DNA of 64,000 bases. It comes from Bacteroidota bacterium. Lineage in GTDB: Bacteria; Bacteroidota; Bacteroidia; Bacteroidales; FEN-979. The notes below the pieces were generated by a model. That model saw nothing but the letters and a program-made list of their open reading frames with translations, did no database searches and was not told the origin of the DNA. A program made the position numbers and the translations under genes. The DNA lies in NCBI GenBank assembly GCA_026391715.1, contig JAPLDO010000078.1, forward strand, positions 137,712 to 201,711, given 5' to 3'. Positions 30,259 through 64,000 of this stretch are shown here, in pieces; the first letter of the stretch is position 1; every line of letters starts with the position of its first letter.

Positions 30259-30352
30259 AATGTGCGTCAAATAATCATACCCCTGTGTGTCAAAATTGAA
30301 TAGTCATGAAAGTTTCATTTCGCCTTAAACTTATATTGTTAATTCAAATTAT

Positions 30353-30473
30353 CGTCCCTCGTCCCTCGTCCCTCGTCCCTCGTCCCTCGTCCTTCGTCCT
30401 TCGTCCTTCGTCCTTCGTCCTTCGTCCTTCGTCCTTCGTCCTTCGTCCTTCGTCCCTCGTCCCTCGTCCCTCG
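30353..30473 (-). repeat. heptanucleotide tandem repeat, 17 units (minus strand AGGGACG x3, AAGGACG x10, AGGGACG x4)
   Basis: The plus strand reads CGTCCCT x4, CGTCCTT x10, CGTCCCT x3. The array abuts the TAA stop of the TolC gene at 30474. Confidence 0.95.
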
Positions 30474-31817
30474 TTAAAACGTAATCGCCTTCCCCTGATA
30501 AAAGTCCAGAATCTTCCGCTTGAATATGAAATCATACTTCGCCTGAATAAGGCTTGATTGCGATTGTGCAAAGTTATTTTTCTGGATAAGGAAGTCGGTG
30601 GCGCTCATTACGCCAACCGAGAATTTCTTCTCTGCATTCTGATAAACTGCTTCCACGGCAGCCAACTGCTGTTTTACAGCATCGTATTTTTTGATGGAAG
30701 CATGGGCGTCGGTATAGGTTTGTTCAACGCTTTTCCGAAGAACGTTTTTCACATTCTGCTCGGTGAGCCGGATTGTTGCCAGGTTGATTTTAGCCCGGTC
30801 AATATTACTTTTAATCTGGCGGTTGCTGTAAATCGGAATCGAAATACCCATCGAGAACGACTGCCCCATGTTGCTCCACATCTGTTTAAAAAACGGGTTT
30901 CCTTCCGGATTTACTTCAGAGCCTTTATCGCGGCTCGAAGCGTAGTTGGAGTTCAGGTTTGCTCCCAGAGTAACCCTCGGATAGCGCGCGCCTTCAGAGA
31001 CTTTCAGCGCCATTTCGGATGCATTGGTTTTCAGGGCGGCTCCGGCAATTTGCGGCTGAACAGTCAGCGATTTCTCATAAATCTGCTGATTTGTCAGTAA
31101 AATATCGGTAATTGTTTCATCCATCGCCGGAGCCACTACCGAAAAACCATCGCTAATGGGAATCTCCATCAACTGCATCAGAGTAATATTGGCGATATCG
31201 AGTTGATTCTGCGCCGTGATGACTGCGAGGTTATCGGTAGCCAACTGCGACTGAATCTGTAGCAAATCGCTTTCAGGCGATTTTCCTGCGTTTACAAGTT
31301 TTGTAGTTCTATCAACCTGCGCCATTGTTGCCTCTGCCTGCTTTTTCGCTGATGCAAGAATTTCGGTTGTAAACAAAACCTGGAGATATCCGGTAGTGAC
31401 ATTAAGGGTTACATCGTTTTTTACCTTTTCCACATCATACTCGCCCGCCTTAATATTCAACCGTTGCTGCCTGATGGTATTTGCATTCTGTAATCCATTG
31501 AAAAGATTATAACTGCTGCTGACGCTAAAGTTTGTGGAGTGAAACCCTTCGGTGGTAAAACTATTTGTGATAGGATCTACATTATTTCCAACATTGAGCG
31601 CCTCATTCGCGCTGGCGCTCAAACCTGGTATTCTGTTGGCTTTCGATTGCTCCAGGCTTGTTTTGTTGAGTTCATTTGTAAGCCGGCTCTGGTTAACCGA
31701 AATATTTCGTTGCAATGCAGTATCAAGGCATTGTTTAAAAGTCCAGGGATTTTTCTGGGCGTTTACCATCTCTAATGATAAAAACATGAGGAGATAAATT
31801 ATGCAAGTTCGGATCAT
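30474..31817 (-). CDS. TolC-family outer membrane efflux protein
   Basis: Has a signal peptide from the ATG at 31817 (MIRTCIIYLLMFLSLEMVNAQ) and two OEP-type repeats. It heads the operon with the adaptor and ABC genes. Confidence 0.85.
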   Translation of the reverse strand: MIRTCIIYLLMFLSLEMVNAQKNPWTFKQCLDTALQRNISVNQSRLTNELNKTSLEQSKANRIPGLSASANEALNVGNNVDPITNSFTTEGFHSTNFSVSSSYNLFNGLQNANTIRQQRLNIKAGEYDVEKVKNDVTLNVTTGYLQVLFTTEILASAKKQAEATMAQVDRTTKLVNAGKSPESDLLQIQSQLATDNLAVITAQNQLDIANITLMQLMEIPISDGFSVVAPAMDETITDILLTNQQIYEKSLTVQPQIAGAALKTNASEMALKVSEGARYPRVTLGANLNSNYASSRDKGSEVNPEGNPFFKQMWSNMGQSFSMGISIPIYSNRQIKSNIDRAKINLATIRLTEQNVKNVLRKSVEQTYTDAHASIKKYDAVKQQLAAVEAVYQNAEKKFSVGVMSATDFLIQKNNFAQSQSSLIQAKYDFIFKRKILDFYQGKAITF

Positions 31818-41060: not shown

Positions 41061-41631
41061 TCATCGTTTTTTCATTATTTTTAACAGCAATCTTCCTTTT
41101 GGGGTTGTGATGTATTTTTGGTTTGGACTTGAAGGTTTATCGGGTTTTGTTAAAGACAACCAACCTAAATTGATTAATGGTTTAATGTGAGTTTGAAAAT
41201 TTTTTGTATGCCTGGTAATTTTCAAATAGTTGAAAATCTCCTCTTTCTTGCGTTCCAAATTACAAAAGGTAATTATCTCAAATTCTTTGGTTGAAATAAG
41301 TTTTTCTAAAGTATCAGCTATGTCACCAGCTATGTCACCAGCTATGTCACCGGCTATGTCACCAGCTATGTCACGAGCTTCATTACCATCTTGATTACCA
41401 GATTTGTCATCATAGACGCCATCAACGTTTTCGACTAAATAATTCGGCTTTTTCGCTCAATTCTTTAACACCTATTAAAATATATCCTCCGCCAATGTTT
41501 TCAAAATCATTGGCAAAAGCACAAATACTGCGATAAACAGAATCCGGATTCCATCCTTCTTTAAATTCGATTCGTTCCGATTCAATCGTTTTAGCAGTGA
41601 GTAAATCGTTGATATTTATCGGTAAAATCAT
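41061..41631 (-). pseudogene. decayed AlbA_2/Schlafen-type DNA-binding regulator gene
   Basis: The N-terminal fragment (ESERIEFKEGWNPDSVYRSICAFANDFENIGGGYILIGV) ends in a stop after 69 aa. A C-terminal winged-helix-like fragment lies in another ORF, and the central ATPase portion is absent. Confidence 0.55.
41316..41378. repeat. 12-bp tandem repeat AGCTATGTCACC x5
   Basis: Five consecutive units carry 2 substitutions. On the minus strand they encode (GDIA)n inside the decayed gene. Confidence 0.9.
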
Positions 41632-42034
41632 GCTTTTTTATTTGTTCTTTTGAACGAATATATTGCTCTGCTTTTATCACGGTTTTCATCCAAGCGTGCA
41701 AGTATCTTGCAGAATAAACAATTCCGGTGTTGATGCACAATTATAAACAACATACAAATAATAATACTTATTAAGTCGTTGAGCTGGTTTGTTTCGTTGG
41801 AATGCGCTATAACTTGCCGCTAACAGTATAATTTGTTGTATTCAGATAAAAAGAAAATGAAACCGAGAGTTTTTACAAAGGTAAATTATAATCACCTGAC
41901 AGCATTTTTTTGATGAAAAATCTTTCGATGTTCAATGACCAGAAAATCATGGTCGTCATCAACATGTGTAATATTTTATGTACCCCTTTTATTTTAATCG
42001 CTACATTAGCCGCTCACAAATAAAAAATACTGCT

Positions 42035-50380: not shown

Positions 50381-51850
50381 ATGAAGGCCATTCCGTTGTT
50401 TTTCGTCTTCCTCCTTCTGACACAGTTGTCGTTTCCTCAAACCAATGATTCAAGAGACACTGCCAAGGCCAACTTCCGGGATTTTGAAAAATCCTGGAAT
50501 GATGGCTTTAATGATTACGCGGCGCAGCACGATTCTGACCTTTCCAAATATCTTCGAAATCACTGGGAAAAATACCAGATATTTATTGATTCAATAAGAT
50601 CAAAAAATAAACCCAAAAAACAACCGCGGTTTATCCCCGAAACGGGGAAGGTTGAATTTATTGATCCGGATAGCGCAATAGGCAAAGATGAACACAAATT
50701 CTACCAGATCTTTCAGGATTCAACCCCTGTAAAAAATGACATCAATTACTTTTCACCTGAGACTTCATTTGAATTCTATGGGGAAAAACCCGTCAACAAC
50801 TTTAAACAAACCGGTATAAAAGTCACGTCTGTCAATGAATCTTCAATAAAGGAATTTTTACGGAAATATTATTCTGATAAAACCTTGGAAAAAAACAAAA
50901 TTGAACTTATCCGGATTGCATGGGATTTGGGACTCAATGATTATGGATATTATCTGTTGCTCAGAAAAGCTGCAGTGCAGATGTTCGACAACCAAAACGA
51001 AAGGGCGCTCTTCACCTGGTTATACCTTCGGTCAATGAACAAGAGGAAGGTCATCCTCGGGTATGACAAAAATAATGCATACTGCCTGGCAGCCTGTGAT
51101 AAAAATTTGTTCAATCACCAATACGTCCTCATCGAAAAGGTGAAATATTATGTTTTTTTAGCTCCCGGGCAGCCAAAACCAACCGGTGACCTAAGTTACT
51201 ATGATTTGGAAAACTCAACAAAAACGGACCCGTTGACTCTTGAAATAGCCCGCTTCCCAAACCTGAACTACAGGACATCAACCCGGTTTTACCCATTTAA
51301 CCGGGACACCCTGCGCATCAATACAAATCTTTTTCTGATTGAATTCCTCCGCGATTTTCCCCAAACCAACCTGAAATATTATTTCGATGCGCCCGTCTCG
51401 GAAAAGACGTTGAGCGCCCTCGACCACGAAGTTAAACCACTGCTTAATGGCAAAACAGAAGTGGAAGAGGTCAATATCCTGTTGGCTTTTTTTCATAAAT
51501 CCTTCCGTTATAAAACAGATCAGGATCAGTTTGGGTCAGAAAAATATATGTTTTGTGATGAGGTTCTATTTTATCCTTATACCGACTGCGATGACAGGGC
51601 TGTGCTGTTTGCCCGGCTTGTTCAGCGGTACACGGGCTTGCCCGTGATCGGGCTCGATTATCCGAACCATGTATCCGTGGGCGTTTGCTTCTCCACTCCG
51701 GTTTCTGGCGATTCTGTCAAATTCGGGAAAAAAAATTATCTTATTTGTGATCCAACAATTATAAATGCCAAAGTTGGTAATGCCTCTGATTCCATGAACG
51801 CTGTTAAGCCTGTCGTAATCGAGGTAAACATTGATTCCATGAACAATTGA
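50381..51850 (+). CDS. secreted protein with C-terminal Cys-His-Asp (transglutaminase/papain-like) signature
   Basis: Has a signal peptide. YPYTDCDDRAVLFARLV ... YPNHVSVGV ... ICDPT parallels the 53479-56151 paralogue. Confidence 0.55.
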   Translation: MKAIPLFFVFLLLTQLSFPQTNDSRDTAKANFRDFEKSWNDGFNDYAAQHDSDLSKYLRNHWEKYQIFIDSIRSKNKPKKQPRFIPETGKVEFIDPDSAIGKDEHKFYQIFQDSTPVKNDINYFSPETSFEFYGEKPVNNFKQTGIKVTSVNESSIKEFLRKYYSDKTLEKNKIELIRIAWDLGLNDYGYYLLLRKAAVQMFDNQNERALFTWLYLRSMNKRKVILGYDKNNAYCLAACDKNLFNHQYVLIEKVKYYVFLAPGQPKPTGDLSYYDLENSTKTDPLTLEIARFPNLNYRTSTRFYPFNRDTLRINTNLFLIEFLRDFPQTNLKYYFDAPVSEKTLSALDHEVKPLLNGKTEVEEVNILLAFFHKSFRYKTDQDQFGSEKYMFCDEVLFYPYTDCDDRAVLFARLVQRYTGLPVIGLDYPNHVSVGVCFSTPVSGDSVKFGKKNYLICDPTIINAKVGNASDSMNAVKPVVIEVNIDSMNN

Positions 51851-53478: not shown

Positions 53479-56151
53479 ATGAAATCAACAGTGTTTCTCT
53501 GTTCTATTCTGCTATTGGCAGCAATGACAACCTTTGGACAAGTCAACAATGATTTTGAACAGGAAAAGAAAAAGCTCCAAAGCGAAATGAATGAATACAT
53601 CAGGCAGACCCGGAAAGAGTTTACCGATTACGTGGACGGGATCAACAAAGCCTATTCGGAATATCTTCGTAAAAACTGGAAAGAGTTCCCTGCTTTGCGT
53701 GCGATGGAACCCGACTCCATGCCGAAGCCGAAAATTCTGCCTGAATACAATCCAGCGATAGACAAAATTAAACCCGGAGAGGCAGTAAGGGTAATTCCCG
53801 TTCTGGTTCCGGATGCCATTCCACAAATAATACCGAAAATACCCAATATCCCGGTTATCCTCCCGGAGGAGGTCATTGAAGAAACACCGGCGCCTGACGA
53901 TAAAAAGCCACAGGATCCGCTGGAAGAAGCCACTAAACCCATCATCCGTGATAAACAGATATCTTTTTATGGCTCAGAACTATCCGTTGAGTTCGATCCC
54001 GCCATGAAAGGATCCCTTCCCGGGGAAATCCACAACACGACCATCGCCGGATTCTGGGACCGTATGAACAAGACCAATTATCCCCGTTTGATCAAACGGC
54101 TATCCGATTTGCGCACACAAATGAACCTGGGAGATTGGGGGTATTACCAACTGGTGAAAAAAACAGCCGAGTTCATCAATCCCGATGAGAATTATTCCCG
54201 GCTGCTCTCGTGGTTCCTGCTTACCAAATCGGGATATCGTATCCGCGTAGCATATACCGATAATCAAATTGCCCTTCTCTTCCCTTCAGCCAACAAGATT
54301 TACGGAATCCGCTATTTTTTGATCAGCAACGTGAAATACTACGCGCCGGGATTTACCCCCAGCCATATTTATACCTACGAACAAGACTTTCCCGGCGCCA
54401 CAAAAGCGCTTGACCTCAATGTTTACAATGCACTGAATATTGGAAATGACTACGTGATGAAGACGATCATTTTCAGTCATAATGACAAAAACTACTCGAT
54501 TGACGTAGAATACAATGCCAACAGCATTGATTTTTATAAAGATTTCCCTTTGTGCGAACTTAAGCTCTATCTGGATGCAGCGATAACGCCGCGCGCCAAA
54601 GAATCGCTGGTTCGCTCCTTGCAGCCGTTGGTTGAAGGGATGACAGAGGCAGAATCAGTAAACCTCCTTCTTTCGTTTGTCCAGAAAGGGTTTTCATACA
54701 AAACAGATCCTGAGCAGTTTGACGGGCATGAGAAGTTCAATTTCCCTGAAGAGACGCTTTTCTATCCCTATTCCGACTGCGACGACCGCGCCATTTTGTT
54801 CACATGGCTTGTCAGGGAATTGCTGGAACTGAAAGTTGTCGGTTTAGTTTATCCCGGGCATGTAGCCACTGCTGTTCACCTCAACGGGGATGAACCCGGA
54901 GATTTTGTAATGTATAAAGGAGAAAAATACATCGTCGCAGATCCAACTTACATCAATGCCCCAATGGGATTGACAATGCCGGGAATGAAAAATTCAGGCG
55001 CCGAAGTGGTCGAACCAACAATCTTTTACAATGAAAAAGAGATTCTGGCATCAATCTGGGAAAAGGTAGAAATAACAGGCGGGTTCAGAGGTGAAAATTT
55101 TCAGGACATTGACAGGGATTCAAGCGGGAATTACTATATTGCAGGGTATTTTAAGGGTGAACTCACCATCGGGGGAACTACATTGACCTCAAATCCATCA
55201 CAAAACGATGCCTTCATCGCAAGGTTCAACAAAAACGGGAACCCCGAATGGGCCATCAGTGGCGGATGTGAAGGAAATGCGAGGGCCGCGAACATCCGGC
55301 TGGATGATGAAAATAACATGTACATCACCGGCACCTTTGAAAAATCAATCAAATTCGGAGGCATTATGATGTTTGCCAATTCACCGGCCAACGCGTTTGT
55401 GGCCAAACTGAACCCGGATGGCAAACTCCTCTGGATGAACCAAACCGCCATCGACACGACCGATGCCAGGGACAACATCCATGTGCTTTCGCTGACCAGT
55501 TCCGGCAAAGTCATCAAATCAGACAAATACCCGCCCGATCCAAACTTCATGGCCTACGGGATAAGCTTTGATGAAAACAAGAATGTGTATTACACCGCCA
55601 CCTACGCCTATACTGCCGGTTTGATTGATAAGCTCACCATGTCGGCCGAGTCAATTTACAATGTTCCTGCCATTTTAAAAGAGGAGACCGATAAACAGAT
55701 TGAACTGAAATGCAACCAGTCCATCGCCGGCCTCTTCAGTGCCATATCGCTGCTGCGGAATGGAACTGTCGCCATCTCCGGTAAATCGGTACAGGCTGCA
55801 TTTGAAAAGTACAACCCCGACTTCAGGAAAAAATCGCCAAACCTTTACGCATCCATCGGGAAGATCAGTATGATGAAAAATGACCAGGGAATCATCACCA
55901 TCCTTACCGAAGACCAGAAACCCATCGGGCTCGACCGGATGAAAATCAACCACAACACCCGGTTGAAACTTTCGATGCTTCCCAACGGCGACGCGAGAAT
56001 TGATGTGTTGGGCGGCATCAAAGTGGGAAAAGCGATCATCTGGTACAGCTTAAATTTCATCAAGCTCTTCCGCACCAATGGTTCAATGCTGTTCGACTAC
56101 GATTCCGACCACAGCCAGGTGACACTTGACGTTCGTAAGGATTTGCTTTGA
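53479..56151 (+). CDS. large secreted protein: paralogue of 50381-51850 (Cys-His-Asp domain) plus C-terminal beta-propeller-like (SBBP-type) repeats
   Basis: Has a signal peptide and YPYSDCDDRAILFTWLV ... YPGHVATAV ... VADPTY. Repeats include NYYIAGYFKGELTIGG, NAFIARFNKNGNPEWA, NMYITGTFEKSIKFGG and NAFVAKLNPDGKLLWM. Confidence 0.6.
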   Translation: MKSTVFLCSILLLAAMTTFGQVNNDFEQEKKKLQSEMNEYIRQTRKEFTDYVDGINKAYSEYLRKNWKEFPALRAMEPDSMPKPKILPEYNPAIDKIKPGEAVRVIPVLVPDAIPQIIPKIPNIPVILPEEVIEETPAPDDKKPQDPLEEATKPIIRDKQISFYGSELSVEFDPAMKGSLPGEIHNTTIAGFWDRMNKTNYPRLIKRLSDLRTQMNLGDWGYYQLVKKTAEFINPDENYSRLLSWFLLTKSGYRIRVAYTDNQIALLFPSANKIYGIRYFLISNVKYYAPGFTPSHIYTYEQDFPGATKALDLNVYNALNIGNDYVMKTIIFSHNDKNYSIDVEYNANSIDFYKDFPLCELKLYLDAAITPRAKESLVRSLQPLVEGMTEAESVNLLLSFVQKGFSYKTDPEQFDGHEKFNFPEETLFYPYSDCDDRAILFTWLVRELLELKVVGLVYPGHVATAVHLNGDEPGDFVMYKGEKYIVADPTYINAPMGLTMPGMKNSGAEVVEPTIFYNEKEILASIWEKVEITGGFRGENFQDIDRDSSGNYYIAGYFKGELTIGGTTLTSNPSQNDAFIARFNKNGNPEWAISGGCEGNARAANIRLDDENNMYITGTFEKSIKFGGIMMFANSPANAFVAKLNPDGKLLWMNQTAIDTTDARDNIHVLSLTSSGKVIKSDKYPPDPNFMAYGISFDENKNVYYTATYAYTAGLIDKLTMSAESIYNVPAILKEETDKQIELKCNQSIAGLFSAISLLRNGTVAISGKSVQAAFEKYNPDFRKKSPNLYASIGKISMMKNDQGIITILTEDQKPIGLDRMKINHNTRLKLSMLPNGDARIDVLGGIKVGKAIIWYSLNFIKLFRTNGSMLFDYDSDHSQVTLDVRKDLL

Positions 56152-56184
56152 TAACCGTATCAATAACTGTTTAATATGTGAAAT

Positions 56185-57795
56185 ATGAAAATTCAGCGAT
56201 CACACCACCGGTTTAAAGCCCGGACGCCCCTGCGGAACCCGGTAAACGATGCCAACGCGTTTGCAGCATCGTTGCGGGCAGTTGGTTTTACCGTGATCGT
56301 GAAGAACAACCTGAACAAGACGGAGATGGAAAACGCGGTGAGAAATTACTCGCAAAGGCTCACCGCCGGCGATGTCGCGCTGTTCTATTACAGCGGCCAC
56401 AGGATGCAGGTAAAGGGCGTCAATTACCTGGTGCCGGTGGGCGAAAGCATCTATTCGGAGGTTGATATTCCATACAAGAGCATGGAGGCACAATTTGTGA
56501 TTGACTACATGCAGGAGGCAAAAACCTCTGTGAACATCATCATCCTTGATGCCTGCCGCGACAACCCGTTCAAATCCTTCCGATCCCTGAGCCGCGGGTT
56601 TGTGCCGGTAATCGCCCCCCAGGGCACTTTCATCGCCTATTCCACCGCCCCCGGAACGGTAGCCTTCGATGGCGCCGGCAGCCACTCACCTTACACCGAA
56701 AACCTGATCGCCTCCATGAAAAAACCGGGGATGCCCATCGAGGAGATGTTCAAAGAGGTGAGGCGGAACGTGATGAACGAAACTTCGAAGATGCAGGTGC
56801 CGTGGGAATCCTCGTCATTGATTGATGCCTTCGCGTTCAATGGGGTTGTAAATTCAAAGATTGTAATTCCCGAATCAACACCGCCCATCGTCAATAAACC
56901 ACTTGCTAAGACTGCAAATTTGCATAAGGATTGTAATAGACTTATTTATATGGCCGATAGATCCTTAAGCGATAAAGAATACTTCAATGCACGAGAAAAC
57001 TATCAAAAAGCGTCACTCATTGAACCTGGAGAGTCCTATCCAAAAGATAAAATCCGGGAAATAGATATATTGCTGGCTAAGAACTTAGATTTATTTACTA
57101 CTATGGTATTTGTGGAGGGCGGAACTTTTCAAATGGGCAGCAACGATGGTTATGACAATGAAAAACCGGTACATTCGGTAACGCTCAATAATTTTTATAT
57201 CGGCAAAACCGAAGTGACCCAGAAACAATGGAGGGAGGTGATGGGCAGCGATCCGCCGGAGTTAAATAACAAAGGTTGCGATCAATGTCCGGTAGAGGGT
57301 GTTTCATGGATTGATGTACAGGATTTCATCACGAAACTGAACCGGAAAACCAATAAAACTTATCGCCTGCCCACCGAAGCAGAATGGGAATATGCCGCAA
57401 GGGGCGGAAACAAAAGCAGGGGATACGCGTATAGCGGAAGCACCAACGTTGGCGATGTGGCATGGTATTCAGAAAATTCCGGTTTAATAACCCACCCGGT
57501 CGGGCAAAAAGAGCCAAATGAACTCGGGATTTACGACATGACCGGAAACGTTTGGGAATGGTGCAGAGATTGGTATGGTGCCTATGAATATGACTGGAAC
57601 AGTACGATTTCCAACCCTCAGGGCCCTTCATCGGGCTCCGACCATGTGTTTCGCGGTGGCGGTTGGGGCATCGGCCCTCAGTACTGCCGCACTTCGTATC
57701 GCAACGGCGCTGCCCCCGACTATCGCAGCTACTATCTGGGGTTTCGTTTTTTTTTTCCCATAGTTCGGGGGCGGCTGTTTGGCCATTCCTTTTGA
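56185..57795 (+). CDS. caspase-like (peptidase C14) - FGE-sulfatase/C-type-lectin-fold fusion protein, putative DGR target A
   Basis: Caspase motifs are NPVNDA, YYSGHRMQ (His) and ILDACRDNPF (Cys). FGE-type motifs are RLPTEAEWEYAARGG, GNVWEWC, RGGGW and LGFR. There is no signal peptide and the first caspase strand appears to be missing. Confidence 0.8.
   Translation: MKIQRSHHRFKARTPLRNPVNDANAFAASLRAVGFTVIVKNNLNKTEMENAVRNYSQRLTAGDVALFYYSGHRMQVKGVNYLVPVGESIYSEVDIPYKSMEAQFVIDYMQEAKTSVNIIILDACRDNPFKSFRSLSRGFVPVIAPQGTFIAYSTAPGTVAFDGAGSHSPYTENLIASMKKPGMPIEEMFKEVRRNVMNETSKMQVPWESSSLIDAFAFNGVVNSKIVIPESTPPIVNKPLAKTANLHKDCNRLIYMADRSLSDKEYFNARENYQKASLIEPGESYPKDKIREIDILLAKNLDLFTTMVFVEGGTFQMGSNDGYDNEKPVHSVTLNNFYIGKTEVTQKQWREVMGSDPPELNNKGCDQCPVEGVSWIDVQDFITKLNRKTNKTYRLPTEAEWEYAARGGNKSRGYAYSGSTNVGDVAWYSENSGLITHPVGQKEPNELGIYDMTGNVWEWCRDWYGAYEYDWNSTISNPQGPSSGSDHVFRGGGWGIGPQYCRTSYRNGAAPDYRSYYLGFRFFFPIVRGRLFGHSF
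57610..57760 (+). repeat. putative DGR variable region, copy A
   Basis: Aligns with 61215-61364 and 63251-63400. Blocks such as GGCCCTTCATCGGGCTCCGACC and CGCGGTGGCGGTTGG are invariant, and substitutions are confined to particular codons. Confidence 0.6.
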
Positions 57796-57855
57796 GCCAG
57801 GACATTCAAAATTCCTAACTTCGCTGATGAAAAACATTTAAAACAGCAAATTGAA

Positions 57856-59100
57856 ATGACTAAAATAAAAATAAAGAATTTCGGGCCCGTCAAAGAGGGA
57901 TATCAGGACAATGACGGCTGGCTTGATGTGAAAAAGGTTACCCTGTTTATCGGTAATCAGGGAAGTGGTAAAAGCGCCGTGGCAAAACTTATCACAACTT
58001 TTATGTGGATAGAGAAAGTCCTTACAAGGGGCGACTACGACAGGAAAAGTTTTTCAAAAGTTTTTGCCATGAAGGACCAGGGGAAAAACCAGTTTCTCAC
58101 ATACTTCCGGTTGGAAAATTATTTTCCGACCGACCGCACCAGAACTTTGATTGAATACAAAGGCGAATCATTCAACATTACACTTGAAAACGGACAACTA
58201 CATATTGAAGCTGCGAAAAATGGCGACTACCCGCTGCCACAAATCATGTATGTTCCGGCCGAAAGAAATTTTATTGCAAATGTGAGAACCCCGAAAGCGC
58301 TGAAACTGATTTCGCCTTCCTTGTCGGAATTTGTGACCGAGTTTGACAATTCCAGGGATGAAATTAGAGAGCCGATGCTTTTGCCAATCAATGATGCCTT
58401 TGTTGAGTATAACAAGTTGAACGATGTTGTTTATATCAAAGGGAATGATTACAGGATTAAGTTGACCGAGTCATCAAGCGGTTTTCAGTCATTGGTCCCA
58501 TTGTTTTTGGTTTCATGGTTTCTTTCCAATTCAGTTAAGCGACAAAGCGACAACACGAAAGAATTGATGACAAGTGAACAAAGGGAACGATTTCGCAAAC
58601 GGTTTCAGGCAATAAATGAAAACCTTGATTTAACCGAAGAACAAAAACGGATTGCAATTTCTTCACTTGCAAAAGAATTTACCAAAACTGCTTTCATCAA
58701 TGTCGTAGAAGAACCGGAACAAAATCTGTTTCCAGGTTCGCAACATGGGGTGTTGAACCGGTTGATCGAATTCAACAACATGAATAGCGGGAACAAATTA
58801 ATAATGACCACCCACAGCCCATACCTGGTTAATTATCTGACTTTGGCAGTAAAGGCAAATGATTTGAACGGAATGATCAAAACGGAGGCGCTTAGAACAC
58901 GGTTAAATGAAATTGTTCCCCTCCAATCAACAACAAGCGCCGACGAGCTTGCAATTTACGAAATGAACGAAAAGGATGGGACGATAGTAAAGTTGGCCAA
59001 CTACAAAGGGTTACCTGATGACGACAATTATTTGAATGAAAAGCTGGCAGAATGCAACGAACTATTTGCAAAACTATTGGAAATTCAGCAAGAAATATGA
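57856..59100 (+). CDS. ABC-type (AAA_15/AAA_21-like) ATPase
   Basis: Has N-terminal IKNFGPV, Walker A (GNQGSGKS), Q-loop (YVPAERN), signature-like SSSGFQS, Walker B (FINVVEEPEQNLFP) and H-loop (MTTHSP). Confidence 0.8.
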   Translation: MTKIKIKNFGPVKEGYQDNDGWLDVKKVTLFIGNQGSGKSAVAKLITTFMWIEKVLTRGDYDRKSFSKVFAMKDQGKNQFLTYFRLENYFPTDRTRTLIEYKGESFNITLENGQLHIEAAKNGDYPLPQIMYVPAERNFIANVRTPKALKLISPSLSEFVTEFDNSRDEIREPMLLPINDAFVEYNKLNDVVYIKGNDYRIKLTESSSGFQSLVPLFLVSWFLSNSVKRQSDNTKELMTSEQRERFRKRFQAINENLDLTEEQKRIAISSLAKEFTKTAFINVVEEPEQNLFPGSQHGVLNRLIEFNNMNSGNKLIMTTHSPYLVNYLTLAVKANDLNGMIKTEALRTRLNEIVPLQSTTSADELAIYEMNEKDGTIVKLANYKGLPDDDNYLNEKLAECNELFAKLLEIQQEI

Positions 59101-59597
59101 GTGTGGATTTTTCTAAAGCGGAGTGTCAGGACAACTCTAAAAAACATTTATTCGGGCTTTGTGATGACCGACCCGGACAACGGGCATATTTAGATGAAGT
59201 AGATGGCGGTAAATGGATTGCTGTTGTGGTAAACGATTACAGATACGAAACAACTTTCACCGCTGTTGACCATTGCATAGATTTGCAAAGAGATGATGGC
59301 AATTTGGCAAAAAGATGCGATGGCTTTTTATCTTACAATTCAACAGTAATTTTTGTTGAACTGAAAGAAAGAGGCGCAATGAATAATGCCTGGGTAACTG
59401 ATGGAGAAAAACAGTTGAGAAGTTCACTTGATTTTTTTAAGGCTGACAGCTACTCAAAAAGGTTCACAGCGAAAAAAGCATACATCGCAAACAGTGAACA
59501 TCCAAGGTTCAAAGTAAGTCAACTCAGACGAATGGAACAATTTCTGGACGACACGGGTTTTGTGCTGCGAATTGAAAACAGAATCATCCTCCAATAA
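59097..59597 (+). CDS. small partner protein with PD-(D/E)xK-like motif
   Basis: Its start overlaps the ATPase stop (ATGA at 59097-59100). CDGFLSYNSTVIFVELKERG fits D-x(n)-E-x-K. No other recognisable domain. Confidence 0.45.
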   Translation: MSVDFSKAECQDNSKKHLFGLCDDRPGQRAYLDEVDGGKWIAVVVNDYRYETTFTAVDHCIDLQRDDGNLAKRCDGFLSYNSTVIFVELKERGAMNNAWVTDGEKQLRSSLDFFKADSYSKRFTAKKAYIANSEHPRFKVSQLRRMEQFLDDTGFVLRIENRIILQ

Positions 59598-59612
59598 TGA
59601 AAGAATACCGAC

Positions 59613-61364
59613 ATGAAGACAAAACTACATTTTTTCATTTTATGTGCCATTTCCATTTTTTACGCTTCGGTGGTCTCCGCCCAGGAGCGCGGCATGCAGC
59701 CTGTCATTTTGAAAATTGACGGCAAAACCACCACGCTCTACCGGCAAAGTTACGCGCTGGTTATCGGGGTGAGCAAATACACAAGCGGATGGCCATCCCT
59801 TCCTGGCGTTGAAAGCGATGTAACGGCAGTGGTATCGGCGCTGGAGAAAAACGGGTTTAATGTTACAAAGGTCCTTAACCCTCAGACCAGGGCCGATCTG
59901 GAAACTGCCATTGAAAATTTTATCAACAGGCACGGGCAGGACACCAACAGCCGTTTGCTCTTTTATTTCGCCTTGCACGGTCACACCATCAAAATGTCAT
60001 ACGGGGAGAGCCTGGGCTACCTTTGTCCCGCCAACGCGCCAGACCCGAATACCAACAAGGCAGATTTTATAACAAAAGCTTTGCCCATGGAAGCTTTTGA
60101 TTTGTTCGCCAAAAAAATAAACTCGAAACATGCCCTGTTTTTGTTCGACGCCTGTTTTGCCGGGCAGGTCTTTTCCGCTACCCGCGCCGCGCCCGAGATA
60201 ATCCAATACAAAACCAGGTTGCCGGTGAGGCAGTTCATCACCAGCGGCGATGCCGATGAAACCGTTCCAGATGTGAGTATTTTCAGGCGGGTTTTTGTTC
60301 AGGCGTTAGAGGGGTATGCCGAAAAAGGCGGCGATGGTTACCTCACCGGCTCCGAACTGGGTGAATATCTTCAGGAACAGGTGGTCAACCTTTCGAATGG
60401 AACCCAGCACCCGCAGTATGGCAAGATCAGGAACATTTATTTAAACAAAGGCGATTTCGTGTTCGTGGTGAAACAAAACACGGCAAAGCCACCGGATGAA
60501 ATCATCATCGAACCGGAAAAACCAAGGATAGCTGACGCTTCGTTTATCCCCGCAGTGGTTTCCATTCCCGGCGGTACTTTCCTTATGGGCAGCAATGATG
60601 GGGAAGATGATGAAAAGCCGGTGCACCGGGTTACGGTAAGTGGTTTTTCGATGGGGAAATACGAAGTAACAGTTTCGCAGTTTAAGAAGTTTATTGACGA
60701 AACAGGCCACCGTACCGATGCCGATAAAGATGGCGGCAGTTACATGTGGACAGGCAGCGAGTGGGAAAAACGCGCCGGGGTAACCTGGAGGTGCGACGCG
60801 GAAGGGAACGCCCGCCCGCAAAACGAATATGACCACCCGGTGATCCACGTAAGCTGGAACGATGCCGTTGAATATTGCAGGTGGTTGAGCGGCAAGACCG
60901 GAAACACCTACCGTTTGCCAACCGAAGCCGAGTGGGAATATGCCGCTGGAAACGGCGCGAAACACACCAGGTACAGTTGGGGCAACGGGGAGCCATGGGG
61001 TAAAAATGGCGGGAACGTAGCCGATGAAGCGGCAAAAAGAAAATTTTCCGGTTGGACCATCTTTTCCGGTTATGACGACGGTTACGTGTTTACTTCGCCT
61101 GTTGGAACCTATAATCCAAACGAATTCGGACTTTACGACATGACCGGCAACGTTTGGGAGTGGTGCAGCGACTGGTATGGCGCGCAATATTACCAGGGCA
61201 GCCCGGCTTCCAACCCTGAAGGCCCTTCATCGGGCTCCGACCGTGTGTTTCGCGGTGGCGGTTGGCTCATCTACCCTCAGTACTGCCGCACTTCGTATCG
61301 CAGCGACCGCACCCCCGGCTACCGCAACTACTATTTGGGGTTTCGTTTGGTTTTTGTCCCATAG
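59613..61364 (+). CDS. secreted caspase-like (C14) - FGE-sulfatase/C-type-lectin-fold fusion protein, putative DGR target B
   Basis: Has a signal peptide ending VVSAQE and caspase motifs YALVIGVSKY, LHGH and LFDACFAG. FGE-type motifs are RLPTEAEWEYAAGNG, GNVWEWC, RGGGW and LGFRLVFVP. Confidence 0.85.
   Translation: MKTKLHFFILCAISIFYASVVSAQERGMQPVILKIDGKTTTLYRQSYALVIGVSKYTSGWPSLPGVESDVTAVVSALEKNGFNVTKVLNPQTRADLETAIENFINRHGQDTNSRLLFYFALHGHTIKMSYGESLGYLCPANAPDPNTNKADFITKALPMEAFDLFAKKINSKHALFLFDACFAGQVFSATRAAPEIIQYKTRLPVRQFITSGDADETVPDVSIFRRVFVQALEGYAEKGGDGYLTGSELGEYLQEQVVNLSNGTQHPQYGKIRNIYLNKGDFVFVVKQNTAKPPDEIIIEPEKPRIADASFIPAVVSIPGGTFLMGSNDGEDDEKPVHRVTVSGFSMGKYEVTVSQFKKFIDETGHRTDADKDGGSYMWTGSEWEKRAGVTWRCDAEGNARPQNEYDHPVIHVSWNDAVEYCRWLSGKTGNTYRLPTEAEWEYAAGNGAKHTRYSWGNGEPWGKNGGNVADEAAKRKFSGWTIFSGYDDGYVFTSPVGTYNPNEFGLYDMTGNVWEWCSDWYGAQYYQGSPASNPEGPSSGSDRVFRGGGWLIYPQYCRTSYRSDRTPGYRNYYLGFRLVFVP
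61170..61364 (+). repeat. putative DGR variable region, copy B
   Basis: Collinear with 63206-63400. Roughly two dozen substitutions fall in about 20 codons, nearly all at codon positions 1-2. The last 29 nt including the stop are identical. Confidence 0.65.
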
Positions 61365-61520
61365 TTTGGGGGAGGCTATTTTGCCATACCTTTTGAGCTA
61401 AGAAGAGACGAGTTTTGCAAGGAGGGAGGGAGGGACGACCGACCGACAAGGCAAAACGAGGAATTAACAATACCGCCCATGGCGGTCGAAATTTTTTTGA
61501 AAATGCAGCTAAAATTATTT
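61365..61520 (+). repeat. conserved 3' element after target B (IMH-like GC block, G-rich tract, hairpin, relic of HRDC gene start)
   Basis: Near-identical to 63401-63560. It contains GGAGGGAGGGAGGGACGACCGACCGAC (61421-61447) and the hairpin ACCGCC-CAT-GGCGGT (61472-61486). It ends with ATGCAGCTAAAATTATTTGCC, which resembles the HRDC ORF start. Confidence 0.75.
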
Positions 61521-61588
61521 GCCCGGATGTCACAAAGCAATCTTTTCGTCCACTTATTATTACCTTTAGTGCGATAAATTGCCACGTT

Positions 61589-63400
61589 ATGAAAACAGCC
61601 CTCCTCCTTGTCCTGCCTTTTTCCATTTTCATTTTTCACTTTTCACTTGTCTCAGCCCAGGAACGCGGCATGCAGCAGGTAAAGGTGAACATCGCCAACA
61701 AACCGGTTGTCCTTTATCAGAAAAGCTATGCCCTGCTGATTGGCGTAAGCGATTATTCCAATGGATTGAAAAAACTCCCTGGCGTAAAAGAGGACATTGA
61801 GGCAGTGAAAGATCAACTGGAAAAGTTCGGTTTCCTGGTGACGGTGGTCATGAACCCCGATAATACCGGGTTGACCAATGCGTTTAACAATTTCATCGCC
61901 AATTACGGGCAGGAGAAGGAGAGCCGTTTGGTTTTTTATTTTGCCGGGCATGGATATACAAGGAACATATACGGCAATGAGATAGGCTATCTGCTGCCTG
62001 TAAATTGCCCGAATCCGGAACTCAACCCATCCGGATTCCAGTCGAATGCCATGCCAATGGGTCAGATCGAACTCTTTGCCCAGCAGGTAGGGTCGAAGCA
62101 TGCCCTTTTTCTTTTTGACGCCTGTTTTTCGGGCGCTGTTTTTGCGCCGTCAAGGGATATTCCGGGGATCATATCATATAAAACTGAACTGCCTGTGCGC
62201 CAGTTCATCACCAGCGGCAGCGCCGACGAAACAGTGCCCGATCAAAGTATATTCCGCAGGCAGTTGTTGGCTGGCTTGCAGGGCGAAGCCGATTTAAACC
62301 ACGACCAATACATCACCGGTACCGAACTGGGGGATTATCTTCAAACAACCGTAGTAAATTATTCCCGCTCTTCATTGCATCCACAGGTAGGAAAAATCCG
62401 CGACCCGAAACTCGACGATGGCGATTTTGTGTTCGTGGTGAAAAATAACACGGCAAAGCCACCGGATGACATCATCATCGAACCGGCAAAAACATGGGTG
62501 CAATACGGCAAACTGGAACTCATGACCGAAATTGCGGGATCCCTTTACATTGACGGCGAAAACAAACAAACGCTCAATGCAAACACCATAAATACTTTTG
62601 GAAATCTTCCGGCAGGTTCGCACACCATTAAAATAGAAGGCGAAGAAACAGTTGAAAAGGAGGTTACCATAACTGCCAATGAAACGGCTAATTTAACCAT
62701 GAAAAAGAGGCCGCGGCAAGCTGCATCAACAGATAATGAAATGGTATTTGTGGAAGGCGGAACCTTTCAAATGGGCAGCAACGATGGGGATAGCGATGAA
62801 AAACCGGTACATTCGGTAACGCTCAATAATTTTTATATCGGCAAGACCGAAGTGACCCAAAAACAATGGAGGGAAGTGATGGGCAGTGATCCGCCGGATT
62901 TAAAAAACAAAGGTTGCGATCAATGTCCGGTGGAGAGTGTTTCATGGAATGATGTACAGGATTTCATCGCAAAACTGAACCGGAAAACCAATAAAACTTA
63001 TCGCCTGCCCACCGAAGCCGAATGGGAATATGCCGCAAGGGGCGGGAACAAAAGCAGGGGATACGCGTATAGCGGAAGCGCCAACGTTGGCGATGTTGCA
63101 TGGTATTCAGAAAATTCCGGTTCAAAAATCCACCCGGTCGCGCAAAAACAACCCAATGAACTGGGGCTGTACGACATGAGCGGCAACGTTTGGGAATGGT
63201 GCAGCGACTGGTATGTCGCGCAATATTACCAGAACAGCCCGGCTTCCAACCCCCAAGGCCCTTCATCGGGCTCCGACCGTGTGCTTCGCGGTGGCGGTTG
63301 GGACTACGACCCTCGGAACTGCCGCTCTTCGTTTCGCGGCAACGACCCCCCCGCCGACCGCGGCGACGATTTGGGGTTTCGTTTGGTTTTTGTCCCATAG
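61589..63400 (+). CDS. secreted caspase-like (C14) - PEGA-like - FGE-sulfatase/C-type-lectin-fold fusion protein, putative DGR target C
   Basis: A signal peptide starts at the ATG at 61589 (MKTALLLVLPFSIFIFHFSLVSAQE). Caspase motifs are YALLIGVSDY, AGHGY and LFDACFSG. A middle domain carries LPAGSHTIKIEGEE, and the FGE-type C-terminus is about 93-95 percent identical by eye to target A. Confidence 0.85.
   Translation: MKTALLLVLPFSIFIFHFSLVSAQERGMQQVKVNIANKPVVLYQKSYALLIGVSDYSNGLKKLPGVKEDIEAVKDQLEKFGFLVTVVMNPDNTGLTNAFNNFIANYGQEKESRLVFYFAGHGYTRNIYGNEIGYLLPVNCPNPELNPSGFQSNAMPMGQIELFAQQVGSKHALFLFDACFSGAVFAPSRDIPGIISYKTELPVRQFITSGSADETVPDQSIFRRQLLAGLQGEADLNHDQYITGTELGDYLQTTVVNYSRSSLHPQVGKIRDPKLDDGDFVFVVKNNTAKPPDDIIIEPAKTWVQYGKLELMTEIAGSLYIDGENKQTLNANTINTFGNLPAGSHTIKIEGEETVEKEVTITANETANLTMKKRPRQAASTDNEMVFVEGGTFQMGSNDGDSDEKPVHSVTLNNFYIGKTEVTQKQWREVMGSDPPDLKNKGCDQCPVESVSWNDVQDFIAKLNRKTNKTYRLPTEAEWEYAARGGNKSRGYAYSGSANVGDVAWYSENSGSKIHPVAQKQPNELGLYDMSGNVWEWCSDWYVAQYYQNSPASNPQGPSSGSDRVLRGGGWDYDPRNCRSSFRGNDPPADRGDDLGFRLVFVP
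63206..63400 (+). repeat. putative DGR variable region, copy C
   Basis: See copies A and B. The variable codons read GAC TAC GAC ... AAC ... GGC AAC GAC ... GCC GAC ... GGC GAC GAT. Confidence 0.65.
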
Positions 63401-63538
63401 TTCGGGGGCGGCTGTTTGGCCATGCCTTTTGAGCTAAGAAGAAACGAGTTTTGCAAGGAGGGAGGGAGGGACGACCGACCGACAAGGCAAAACGAGGAAT
63501 TAACAATACCGCCTGTGGCGGTCGAAAAAATTTTTGAA
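63401..63538 (+). promoter_or_regulatory. conserved 3' element after target C (IMH-like GC block, G-rich tract, hairpin)
   Basis: TTCGGGGGCGGCTGTTTGGCC follows the stop directly. The G-rich tract is at 63457-63483 and the hairpin ACCGCC-TGT-GGCGGT at 63508-63522. The stems are identical in copies B and C while the loops differ. Confidence 0.55.
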
Positions 63539-64000
63539 ATGCAACTGAAATTGTTCACCATCCCTGTAACCGACACAGGGGCTTTTACAGAAGAACTCAA
63601 CAGGTTTTTGCGCGCCAATAAAATACTGGAAGTCGAAAATCATTTGATAAGCAATGAACACGGGGCATCCTGGTGTTTTTGCGTAAAATATATCGAATCG
63701 GGCTGGACACCCCACCCCGGCGACCGGCCAAAAACAGATTATAAAACCGAGTTGGACGCGGAAACTTTTGAAGTGTTTTCAAAACTCAGGGAGGCTCGTA
63801 AACAGTTGGCTTTGGAGGATGCCGTTCCCGCATACGCTATCTGTACCGACCAGGAGATGGCTTTAATTGCCAAACTAAAAGAGTTGACCCTTGAAAATTT
63901 ACTTACCGTGAAAGGTTTTGGGGATAAAAAACTTGAAAAATACGGAAACCGGCTAATCCTTATAGTTAAACAAAAAACACAAGATGAAAAGGGCAGGGAA
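63539..64000 (+). CDS. HRDC-domain protein, N-terminal part (frame open to right window edge); candidate DGR accessory gene
   Basis: The frame runs uninterrupted from the ATG at 63539 to the window end. FEVFSKLREARKQLALEDAVPAYAICTDQEMALIAKL...VKGFGDKKLEKYG fits the HRDC consensus. It is absent from the ORF track because no stop is reached. Confidence 0.75.
   Translation, partial: MQLKLFTIPVTDTGAFTEELNRFLRANKILEVENHLISNEHGASWCFCVKYIESGWTPHPGDRPKTDYKTELDAETFEVFSKLREARKQLALEDAVPAYAICTDQEMALIAKLKELTLENLLTVKGFGDKKLEKYGNRLILIVKQKTQDEKGRE

What the first reader, a model, noticed from the sequence alone, without database searches (positions are those of the whole stretch)
56185..64000. Multi-target DGR-like locus: three caspase-lectin fusion genes followed by an HRDC accessory gene, with RT and TR predicted beyond the right edge
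Three ORFs (56185-57795, 59613-61364, 61589-63400) each fuse a peptidase C14/caspase-like domain with an intact His/Cys dyad to an FGE-sulfatase (C-type-lectin fold) domain. Their extreme C-termini are hypervariable between copies, while the flanking sequence is conserved. An HRDC-domain ORF begins 139 nt after the third gene and runs off the window. In described DGRs the CLec/FGE fold is the commonest variable-protein scaffold, the variable region sits at the 3' end of the target gene, and HRDC proteins are a known alternative to Avd as the accessory factor. Caspase-FGE fusions linked to DGRs have been noted in comparative-genomic surveys of conflict systems. As far as I can recall, nobody has tested experimentally an array of three such targets in a Bacteroidota genome. 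Here two of the targets carry signal peptides and the array carries an embedded ATPase-nuclease pair. This would amount to a hypervariable ligand-binding sensor coupled to a protease effector.
Basis: partly seen in the sequence, partly recalled or inferred. Interest (0 to 1): 0.88.

Follow-up and report, generated by a model that had tools for sequence, protein, structure and literature searches.

The report
DGR diversifying three caspase-lectin genes
This is a genuine chromosomal diversity-generating retroelement in a Bacteroidota genome that rewrites the binding tips of two exported caspase-lectin fusion proteins (a third copy looks decayed); it is a well-formed example of a known kind, not a new system.

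Summary
Three ORFs fuse a Peptidase_C14 domain with an intact His/Cys dyad to an FGE-sulfatase (C-type-lectin fold) domain. An HRDC gene follows at 63539. The reverse transcriptase (RT) gene starts inside the window at 63984 (MKRAG).

A public contig that overlaps the last 517 nt of the window without mismatch carries the whole RT and the first 97 nt of the template repeat (TR). The three variable regions (VRs) differ from this TR at 16-19 of its 29 adenines, and at 0, 0 and 3 of 68 other bases. HRDC and RT have consecutive NCBI accessions after the three targets, on one 228,691-bp MAG contig.

ORF1 looks like a decaying target. It lacks a signal peptide and the first caspase strand, has non-A mismatches, and carries a 2-nt deletion near the VR end. 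The "ATPase-nuclease pair" is a separate candidate defence system, PADLOC PDC-M29, absent from all related DGR loci.

Caspase-FGE fusions are very common, and are DGR targets in several phyla. The verdict is therefore a new member of a known kind, of moderate interest.

One new lead: in HRDC-type relatives, the 30-45 nt after the TR is the reverse complement of the 30-45 nt after each VR. The VR-side element is present in the window.

The parts
56185..57795 (+). ORF1: caspase (C14) + FGE/CLec fusion, probably a decaying target. It has no signal peptide and lacks the first beta-strand of the caspase domain. A 2-nt deletion near the VR end shifts the C-terminal tail out of frame.
   Evidence: Pfam. 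N-terminal comparison. Alignment. Multiple stop codons separate it from the upstream ORF.
57633..57763 (+). VR1
   Evidence: Mismatches against the recovered TR: 18 of 29 at TR adenines, 3 of 68 at other bases. Identical in a contig from another sample, L003.
57856..59100 (+). PDC-M29A-type AAA ATPase. An inserted candidate defence gene, not part of the DGR.
   Evidence: PADLOC PDC-M29A, E 7.9e-175, full length. Pfam AAA_15/AAA_21. GC 0.40 against 0.49-0.52 in the flanking genes; absent from all related DGR loci.
59097..59597 (+). PDC-M29B partner protein (166 aa), a putative PD-(D/E)xK-like nuclease.
   Evidence: PADLOC PDC-M29B, E 2.1e-60. D58 and E88 invariant, D75 and K90 nearly invariant. 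Weak SduA_C/NERD hits in family members. Model pLDDT 95.5; the best fold matches are restriction endonucleases but are not significant.
59613..61364 (+). ORF2: signal peptide + caspase + FGE/CLec fusion, a DGR target.
   Evidence: Pfam. AF2 model, mean pLDDT 78.8. Fold matches to human FGE (TM-score on target length, TMt, 0.80), TvpA 2y3c and the MALT1 caspase domain (TMt 0.71).
61232..61364 (+). VR2
   Evidence: 16 of 29 mismatches at TR adenines, 0 of 68 at other bases.
61365..61514 (+). Conserved 3' flank of VR2. It holds the hairpin-1 block TTTGGGGGAGGCTATTTTGCCATACCTTTTGAGC, a second stem, and a GC hairpin followed by a T run.
   Evidence: (covariance model R1, 175 bits).
61503..61523 (+). 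Remnant of the HRDC gene start (reads MQLKLFA). It marks a roughly 2-kb duplication or insertion that created the ORF3 copy.
   Evidence: repeat D4 at a spacing of 2036 nt.
61589..63400 (+). ORF3: signal peptide + caspase + PEGA + FGE/CLec fusion, a DGR target. It is a mosaic: its caspase is 57% identical to ORF2's and its FGE domain 89.5% identical to ORF1's.
63268..63400 (+). VR3
   Evidence: 19 of 29 mismatches at TR adenines, 0 of 68 at other bases.
63401..63538 (+). Conserved 3' flank of VR3, which is also the target-HRDC intergenic region. It contains TTCGGGGGCGGCTGTTTGGCCATGCCTTTTGAGC. In relatives this block is the reverse complement of the TR 3' flank.
   Evidence: (176 bits).
63539..64000 (+). 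HRDC accessory gene. The window holds 154 of its 156 codons.
   Evidence: Pfam HRDC. 100% identical to P0001 / MCX6278124.
63984..64000 (+). Start of the DGR reverse transcriptase gene (MKRAG...). It overlaps the end of the HRDC gene by 26 nt.

Best explanation
The locus is a chromosomal, HRDC-type diversity-generating retroelement (DGR). Its gene order is target(s) - HRDC - RT - TR.

Shown: the TR lies immediately after the RT stop codon, just past the right edge of the window. All three C-terminal variable regions match it except at its adenines.

Inferred from how described DGRs work: the TR is transcribed. The RT, helped by the HRDC protein, makes cDNA with random bases opposite template adenines. 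That cDNA replaces the last ~133 nt of the target genes. At least 17 codons in the ligand-binding face of the C-type-lectin/FGE fold are recoded, which I calculate as at least 1e17 protein variants per target.

VR2 and VR3 are current targets. VR1/ORF1 is a decaying copy.

The products are exported (inferred from the signal peptides and the PEGA domain). They join a hypervariable binding domain to a caspase-like cysteine protease with an intact dyad. The most likely role is ligand-directed or ligand-triggered proteolysis in the cell envelope or outside the cell. This last step is speculative.

The PDC-M29 ATPase/nuclease-like pair between ORF1 and ORF2 is an independent insertion.
For: RT and TR on the same DNA.
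- L006 equals window 63484-64000 with 0 of 517 mismatches and continues with the RT and TR.
- The RT (P0127) starts MKRAG, as does window 63984-64000. It carries YMDD and the IGNLTSQ box.
- Accession numbers are consecutive on one 228,691-bp contig.

Adenine-specific mismatches.
- Mismatches at TR adenines: 18, 16 and 19 of 29. At other bases: 3, 0 and 0 of 68.
- ORF2 and ORF3 share only 40% amino-acid identity in the FGE domain upstream of the VR, yet are identical at 68 of 68 non-A VR positions. That pattern points to homing from a common TR, not common descent.

Architecture in relatives.
- Relatives show the same order, with TR/VR pairs that differ mainly at TR adenines.
- HRDC is detected in 88 of 138 cellular relatives (ending within 200 nt upstream of the RT start in 69) and in 0 of 75 viral ones.
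- The best viral RT match is 43% identical, against 60-78% for cellular contigs.
- Neighbouring genes are housekeeping genes: rpoN and a class II aminoacyl-tRNA synthetase.

The FGE domain is not an enzyme.
- The equivalent of human FGE Cys336 falls on a TR AAC codon and reads I, I or Y in the three copies.

The caspase looks active.
- The His/Cys dyad is invariant in the family.
- The N-terminal domain of the model matches the MALT1 caspase domain.
Against: - Only the first 97 nt of the TR were recovered. Its 3' end, IMH* (the TR-side counterpart of the initiation-of-mutagenic-homing sequence) and flank are not seen for this genome.
- There is no direct evidence of ongoing diversification. 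The 90%-identity clusters of all three targets are singletons. VR1 is identical in a second sample.
- No phage-type GC-rich hairpin lies within 35 nt of the VR ends.
- Export and protease activity are inferred from sequence only.
Confidence: 0.9

Rival explanations
1. The DGR is a relic. The three C-termini are diverged paralogues that were diversified in the past, and the element no longer homes.
For: - The target clusters are singletons, so no variants are on record.
- VR1 is identical between two samples and carries 3 non-A mismatches plus a 2-nt deletion.
- No phage-type hairpin lies next to the VRs.
Against: - VR2 and VR3 have 0 of 68 non-A mismatches to the TR, while the FGE domains outside the VR are only 40% identical.
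- The RT has intact YMDD and IGNLTSQ motifs and the HRDC gene is intact.
- The TR keeps its AAC codons.
Confidence: 0.1
2. The ATPase and small nuclease-like protein are functional partners of the caspase-lectin array, forming an NTPase-regulated conflict system.
For: - They sit between target genes on the same strand.
- The ATPase is of the AAA_15/AAA_21 type found in defence systems.
Against: - Both match full-length models of a stand-alone candidate system, PDC-M29A and PDC-M29B.
- Apart from L001-L003 (Logan contigs of this same locus), none of the ~250 related DGR loci fetched contains them.
- Their GC content is 0.40, against 0.49-0.52 for the flanking targets.
Confidence: 0.07
3. The C-terminal domains are working SUMF1/EgtB/PvdO-type enzymes, as NCBI names them. 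The proteins would then modify substrates rather than bind variable ligands.
For: - Strong sequence and fold similarity to human FGE (E about 1e-47; TMt 0.80).
- NCBI names them this way.
Against: - One of the two catalytic cysteines of FGE aligns with a hypervariable codon and is absent.
- The VR overlays the active-site region.
- The domain also matches the DGR variable protein TvpA, 2y3c.
Confidence: 0.03

Closest known systems
HRDC-type DGRs ('Architecture C' of Wu et al. 2018, PMC5758913; prototype Treponema denticola TvpA DGR, PMC4891356)
   Same: - An HRDC accessory gene overlaps the RT gene.
- The target has a CLec/FGE fold with a C-terminal VR.
- The context is chromosomal.
- The target domain matches TvpA by sequence and by fold.
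   Different: - The gene order here is target-HRDC-RT-TR. In T. denticola the accessory gene lies between TR and RT (PMC4891356).
- The targets carry an N-terminal caspase domain.
- There are three targets.
Cyanobacterial DGR variable proteins with N-terminal orthocaspase domains (Vallota-Eastman et al. 2020, PMC7517822); metacaspase-FGE-sulfatase architecture (Asplund-Samuelsson et al. 2012, PMC3501461)
   Same: - The same two-domain logic: a C14 protease at the N-terminus and a DGR-diversified CLec domain at the C-terminus.
- The architecture was already reported in Bacteroidota (Haliscomenobacter).
   Different: - The host here is an uncultured Bacteroidota MAG.
- The targets have signal peptides, and one has a PEGA domain.
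- The accessory gene is HRDC.
- A tandem array of three targets shares one TR.
DGR-diversified putative antigen sensors of conflict systems in multicellular bacteria (Dore et al. 2024, PMC10907252; Kaur et al. 2020, PMC7159879)
   Same: - A hypervariable CLec/FGS domain is linked to effector domains, including caspase-like peptidases.
- Some targets in those systems are predicted to be exported.
   Different: - No STAND NTPase, MoxR/vWA or adaptor (EAD, Trypco) domains were detected in the genes examined.
- The protease is fused directly to the variable domain.
Bordetella phage BPP-1 DGR (mtd-avd-TR-brt)
   Same: - Adenine-specific TR-to-VR information transfer.
- AAC-rich TR.
- The VR sits at the 3' end of a CLec-fold gene.
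   Different: - HRDC replaces Avd, and the TR lies downstream of the RT.
- There is no GC-rich GRNA-loop hairpin 4-34 bp after the VR (PMC3240598).
- Instead there is a conserved ~150-nt 3' flank. In relatives its first 30-45 nt is the reverse complement of the TR flank.

Membership tests
Diversity-generating retroelement (DGR) | Reverse transcriptase of the DGR type (RVT_1 with YxDD and the [I/L]GxxxSQ box), encoded next to the repeats | tested here: met
   P0127 is 332 aa, has Pfam RVT_1, and contains 'LPIGNLTSQ' and 'YMDD'. Its start, MKRAG, lies at window 63984. It follows HRDC on the same contig. That the SQ box is diagnostic rests on my own knowledge of the DGR literature.
Diversity-generating retroelement (DGR) | A template repeat and variable repeat(s) that differ almost only at TR adenines | tested here: met
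   The 97 nt of TR recovered (L006 1501-1597) were compared with VR1, VR2 and VR3. Mismatches at adenines: 18, 16 and 19 of 29. At other bases: 3, 0 and 0 of 68. Fisher P 2e-9 to 3e-13. The last ~36 nt of the TR were not recovered.
Diversity-generating retroelement (DGR) | VR at the 3' end of a target gene, in a C-type-lectin/FGE or Ig-like scaffold | tested here: met
   The VRs are the last 133 nt of ORF2 and ORF3. Pfam FGE-sulfatase. Fold match to FGE and TvpA.
Diversity-generating retroelement (DGR) | Accessory gene (avd, HRDC, MSL or CH1) | tested here: met
   HRDC gene at 63539, overlapping the RT start.
Diversity-generating retroelement (DGR) | IMH at the VR end versus IMH* at the TR end | tested here: inconclusive
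   The TR 3' end of this genome was not recovered. In relatives L004 and L250, TR/VR homology runs without mismatch to ...CCCATAG or ...CCCCAG and then stops.
Diversity-generating retroelement (DGR) | GC-rich 7-10 bp hairpin with a GRNA loop 4-34 bp downstream of the VR (phage-type target element, PMC3240598) | tested here: not met
   No such inverted repeat was found, and folding is no better than shuffled sequence. Wu et al. found the feature in only 34% of DGRs (PMC5758913), so it does not define the family.
Diversity-generating retroelement (DGR) | Observed diversification of the VR within or between populations | tested here: inconclusive
   VR1 is identical in a contig from a second sample. 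Clusters for all three targets are singletons. Reads could not be mapped with these tools.
Peptidase C14 (caspase / orthocaspase) | p20-like caspase fold with a catalytic His-Cys dyad | tested here: met
   Pfam Peptidase_C14 in all three ORFs. H122 and C181 (ORF2 numbering) are invariant in 30 sequences. The motifs are YYSGHR/DACR, YFALHG/DACF and YFAGHG/DACF. The His aligns with the caspase-1 SHG motif. Fold match to MALT1. ORF1 lacks the first strand.
Formylglycine-generating enzyme (SUMF1) as an enzyme | Both copper-binding catalytic cysteines (human Cys336 and Cys341) | tested here: not met
   In the alignment to 2aii, only the Cys341 equivalent is kept. The Cys336 position is a variable codon that reads Ile in ORF2.
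PADLOC candidate defence system PDC-M29 | Adjacent A (ATPase) and B (small protein) components, each matching the model over its full length | tested here: met
   A: E 7.9e-175, residues 1-413 on model positions 1-409 of 410. B: E 2.1e-60, residues 1-165 on model positions 1-163 of 164. The genes overlap by 4 nt.
vWA-MoxR / STAND ternary conflict systems (Kaur et al. 2020) | MoxR AAA+ or STAND NTPase plus vWA/VMAP component next to the FGS-domain protein | tested here: not met
   No such Pfam or NCBIfam domains were found in ORFs from 49.6 to 64 kb. The relative L004 has VWA, FHA, PP2C and Pkinase genes nearby, but this window does not.

The most novel reading that the evidence does not exclude
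In HRDC-type DGRs, including this one, target choice or priming may work by base pairing rather than through the phage-type hairpin. The 30-45 nt immediately 3' of the TR is the reverse complement of the 30-45 nt immediately 3' of each VR. In the window that block is TTCGGGGGCGGCTGTTTGGCCATGCCTTTTGAGC, after VR1, VR2 and VR3. The TR transcript would then be antisense to the target's 3' flank (or its cDNA would carry a copy of that flank). The complementarity is kept across relatives although the sequences differ. I did not find it described in the DGR papers I searched.
Probability: 0.3. Interest if true: 0.75.

Novelty: new member of a known kind. Interest (0 to 1): 0.42.

Why it matters
As a DGR this adds little. 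HRDC-type cellular DGRs, multi-target cassettes and caspase-CLec targets are all on record.

Two things make it useful.

1. It is a clean natural case in which one template repeat programmes the binding site of exported lectin-protease fusions. That makes it a tractable system for asking what a bacterial protease with a programmable binding site does at the cell surface.

2. The conserved VR flank, and its reverse-complement partner next to the TR in relatives, gives a directly testable hypothesis for how Avd-less, HRDC-type DGRs find their targets. As far as I know, that mechanism has not been worked out.

Tried and rejected
Attempts to extend the contig.
- Exact-pattern scans of genome contigs and metagenome contigs with window sequence found nothing.
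- Look-ups of ORF3 and of the full HRDC protein found no contig.
- RT-based scans of genome contigs and metagenome contigs returned only relatives, at 60% and 78% identity or less.
- The TR 3' end of the source genome therefore stays unseen.

Attempts to find population variants.
- The 90%-identity clusters of the three targets are singletons.
- Logan contigs of three samples break at the VR and TR borders. I do not take that as evidence of heterogeneity, because at least one break (the start of L006) is explained by an exact repeat of 31 nt or more.

Other dead ends.
- Read-through fusion of the upstream 890-aa ORF with ORF1 is rejected. They are in the same frame, but several stop codons lie between them.
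- A phage-type hairpin after the VR was not found.
- Rfam gave no match in 56000-64000.
- A profile of the PDC-M29B family against PDB sequences gave nothing. Fold search gave only non-significant restriction-endonuclease matches.
- A prophage context is rejected.


Full report
**Observation.**
The flagged region holds three same-strand ORFs: 56185-57795, 59613-61364 and 61589-63400. Each matches Pfam Peptidase_C14 and FGE-sulfatase well above the curated cut-offs. ORF3 also has a PEGA domain. In a 30-sequence alignment of the family that includes all three ORFs, the catalytic His and Cys are invariant (ORF2 H122/C181). The last ~170 nt of the three genes form a three-copy repeat. In the alignment, differences fall in pairs on codon positions 1-2, while the bases between them and the sequence after the stop codon are conserved. 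An ORF with an HRDC domain starts at 63539 and runs off the window.

**RT and TR.**
- The HRDC fragment is 100% identical to a 156-aa NCBI protein from a 'Bacteroidetes bacterium' MAG, on a contig of 228,691 bp.
- In relatives the HRDC gene overlaps by 26 nt the start of a 332-338-aa RVT_1 gene.
- At the same offset the window has ATG at 63984, reading MKRAG.
- A 332-aa RT that starts MKRAG (P0127) is on record from a contig of the same length.
- The five proteins have accessions MCX6278119, MCX6278122, MCX6278123, MCX6278124 and MCX6278125. This places targets, HRDC and RT in that order on one contig.
- Logan contig L006 (SRR20698650) matches window 63484-64000 with no mismatch in 517 nt. It continues through the whole RT gene and ends 97 nt after its stop codon.
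- Those 97 nt are the start of the template repeat: GGGCTCCAACCGTGTGAATCGCGGTGGCAGTTGGAACAACAACCCTCAGAACTGCCGCACTTCGAATCGCAACAACAACACCCCCGACAACCGCAAC.
- The RT carries YMDD and the IGNLTSQ box. That the IGxxxSQ box marks DGR RTs rests on my own knowledge.

**Adenine specificity.**

| Copy | Start in window | Mismatches at the 29 TR adenines | Mismatches at the 68 other bases |
|---|---|---|---|
| VR1 | 57633 | 18 | 3 |
| VR2 | 61232 | 16 | 0 |
| VR3 | 63268 | 19 | 0 |

Fisher P ranges from 2e-9 to 3e-13. The TR reads GSNRVNRGGSWNNNPQNCRTSNRNNNTPDNRN. It has twelve AAC/AAT codons and five single-A codons in the recovered part, which I calculate as at least 1e17 possible protein variants per target.

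ORF2 and ORF3 share only 40% amino-acid identity in the FGE domain upstream of the VR. Yet they are identical at all 68 non-A VR positions. Homing from a common TR produces that pattern; shared descent does not.

**State of the three targets.**
- ORF2 and ORF3 begin with typical signal-peptide sequences, MKTKLHFFILCAISIFYASVVSAQ and MKTALLLVLPFSIFIFHFSLVSAQ. This is sequence reading only; no predictor was available.
- ORF1 has no such N-terminus and lacks the first beta-strand of the caspase domain. Several stop codons separate it from the upstream ORF.
- ORF1 also has three non-A mismatches and a 2-nt deletion in the T/G-rich end of the VR, which shifts the last codons.
- VR1 is identical in a contig from another sample, L003 from ERR15302190.
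- I therefore read ORF1 as a decaying target.
- ORF3 is a mosaic. Its caspase domain is 57% identical to ORF2's, and its FGE domain 89.5% identical to ORF1's.
- A remnant of the HRDC start codon region (reading MQLKLFA, at 61503) follows VR2. The third copy therefore arose by a ~2-kb duplication or insertion (repeat D4).

**What the target domains are.**
- The AF2 model of ORF2 has mean pLDDT 78.8.
- It matches human FGE (TM-score normalised to target length, TMt, 0.80), the DGR variable protein TvpA (2y3c), and, for the N-terminal domain, the MALT1 caspase domain (TMt 0.71).
- In the alignment to human FGE, the Cys341 equivalent is kept. The Cys336 position is one of the variable codons.
- So the domain is a binding scaffold, not a formylglycine-generating enzyme, whatever the NCBI name says.

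**The embedded gene pair.**
- The 414-aa ATPase and the 166-aa protein (59097-59597) match PADLOC PDC-M29A and PDC-M29B over their full lengths (E 7.9e-175 and 2.1e-60).
- They have lower GC than the flanking genes (0.40 against 0.49-0.52).
- Apart from L001-L003, which are Logan contigs of this same locus, none of the ~250 related DGR loci fetched contains them.
- The small protein family has invariant or nearly invariant D58, D75, E88 and K90. A few members give weak SduA_C or NERD hits.
- Its model is confident (pLDDT 95.5). The best fold matches are restriction endonucleases but are not significant.
- 'Nuclease' is plausible but not shown. I read the pair as a separate insertion, not part of the array.

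**Context and relatives.**
- Upstream genes include rpoN, an ABC transporter and a class II aminoacyl-tRNA synthetase.
- The best viral RT relative is 43% identical. Cellular contigs reach 60-78%.
- HRDC is detected upstream of the RT in 88 of 138 cellular relatives (within 200 nt of the RT start in 69) and in none of 75 viral ones.
- This is a chromosomal HRDC-type DGR, 'Architecture C' of Wu et al. (PMC5758913).
- All but two of the best 120 hits of ORF2 have the Peptidase_C14 + FGE-sulfatase architecture.
- Among the RT relatives, caspase-FGE fusions with TR-matching VRs occur in Phaeodactylibacter, Spirochaetaceae, Desulfosarcina and Thermodesulfobacteriota. A Desulfobacterales contig (L049) carries three such fusions around one RT.
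- The metacaspase-FGE architecture was catalogued in 2012 (PMC3501461).
- Orthocaspase-CLec DGR variable proteins were described in cyanobacteria (PMC7517822).
- DGR-diversified sensors linked to caspase-like effectors were described in PMC10907252 and PMC7159879.
- The locus is therefore a new member of a known kind.

**Target-site elements, a lead beyond the finding.**
- No phage-type GC-rich hairpin lies near the VR ends.
- Instead, VR2 and VR3 are followed by a conserved ~150-nt element, truncated after VR1. A covariance model built on it finds it downstream of VRs in many HRDC-type relatives.
- The model also matched on the minus strand immediately after the TR of two relatives.
- Following this up, I found that in relatives the 30-45 nt after the end of TR/VR homology is, at the TR, the reverse complement of the sequence at the VR.
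- The sequences differ between loci while the complementarity is kept. Examples are L004, L007, L017, L038 and L250.
- In a rough census the complementarity was significant in 25 of 49 loci with an adjacent HRDC gene. It was significant in 5 of 46 cellular loci without one, and in 5 of 57 viral loci.
- Within-locus pair scores have a median of 16, against 7 for cross-locus pairs. 28 of 38 loci exceed the 95th percentile of cross pairs.
- The VR-side halves are in the window: 57764-57800, 61365-61400 and 63401-63436. The TR side of this genome was not recovered.
- I did not find this described in the papers searched. That is not proof of novelty.

**Limits.**
- The last ~36 nt of the TR and its flank are unseen for this genome.
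- There is no read-level evidence of current diversification.
- Export, protease activity and biological role are inferences.

Noticed in passing
window 57764-57800, 61365-61400, 63401-63436; relatives L004 11579-11612, L250 about 2737-2770, L007, L017, L038 and others: In HRDC-type relatives, the 30-45 nt right after the TR is the reverse complement of the 30-45 nt right after each VR. The sequences covary between loci. The complementarity was significant in 25 of 49 HRDC-adjacent loci, against 10 of 103 others. The VR-side block is present after all three VRs of the window.
   Followed up: partly
window 61365-61514 and 63401-63550 (truncated copy 57758-57856): A conserved ~150-nt element lies 3' of the VRs. 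It has three predicted hairpins. The second stem is GTTTTGC/GCAAAAC here and TTGGCC/GGCCAA in L004. The third is ACCGCC-NNN-GGCGGT followed by a T run, which looks like a terminator. There is no Rfam match.
   Followed up: partly
window 61503-61523: A remnant of the first codons of the HRDC gene (reading MQLKLFA) lies downstream of VR2. It shows that ORF3 and its flank arose by a ~2036-nt duplication or insertion.
   Followed up: yes
window 57856-59597: A complete PADLOC candidate defence pair, PDC-M29A and PDC-M29B, is inserted between two DGR targets. Its GC content is lower than that of its neighbours.
   Followed up: yes
window 50381-51850 and 53479-56151; L011 2721-5447, L100 2739-4223, L026 10564-12048: Two paralogous exported proteins lie upstream of the DGR. 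They have no Pfam match apart from beta-propeller repeats. By eye they share a Cys/His/Asp pattern: DCDDRA...YPGH...DPT. Homologues sit next to related DGRs in three other loci, twice right after the TR. This may be a functional link.
   Followed up: partly
window 30338-30491: About 20 tandem copies of a 7-nt unit (TCGTCCC/TCGTCCT) lie between two minus-strand ORFs. This could be a phase-variable tract.
   Followed up: no
window 41291-41410: About 7 tandem copies of a 12-nt unit (CAGCTATGTCAC) lie in the gap between the ORFs that end at 40370 and start at 41978.
   Followed up: no
L001-L003, L006 (Logan contigs of three samples): Assemblies of this locus from three public runs break at or near the VR and TR borders: 57757, 61190, 63484 and TR nt 97. 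Position 59286 differs from the window in all three.
   Followed up: partly
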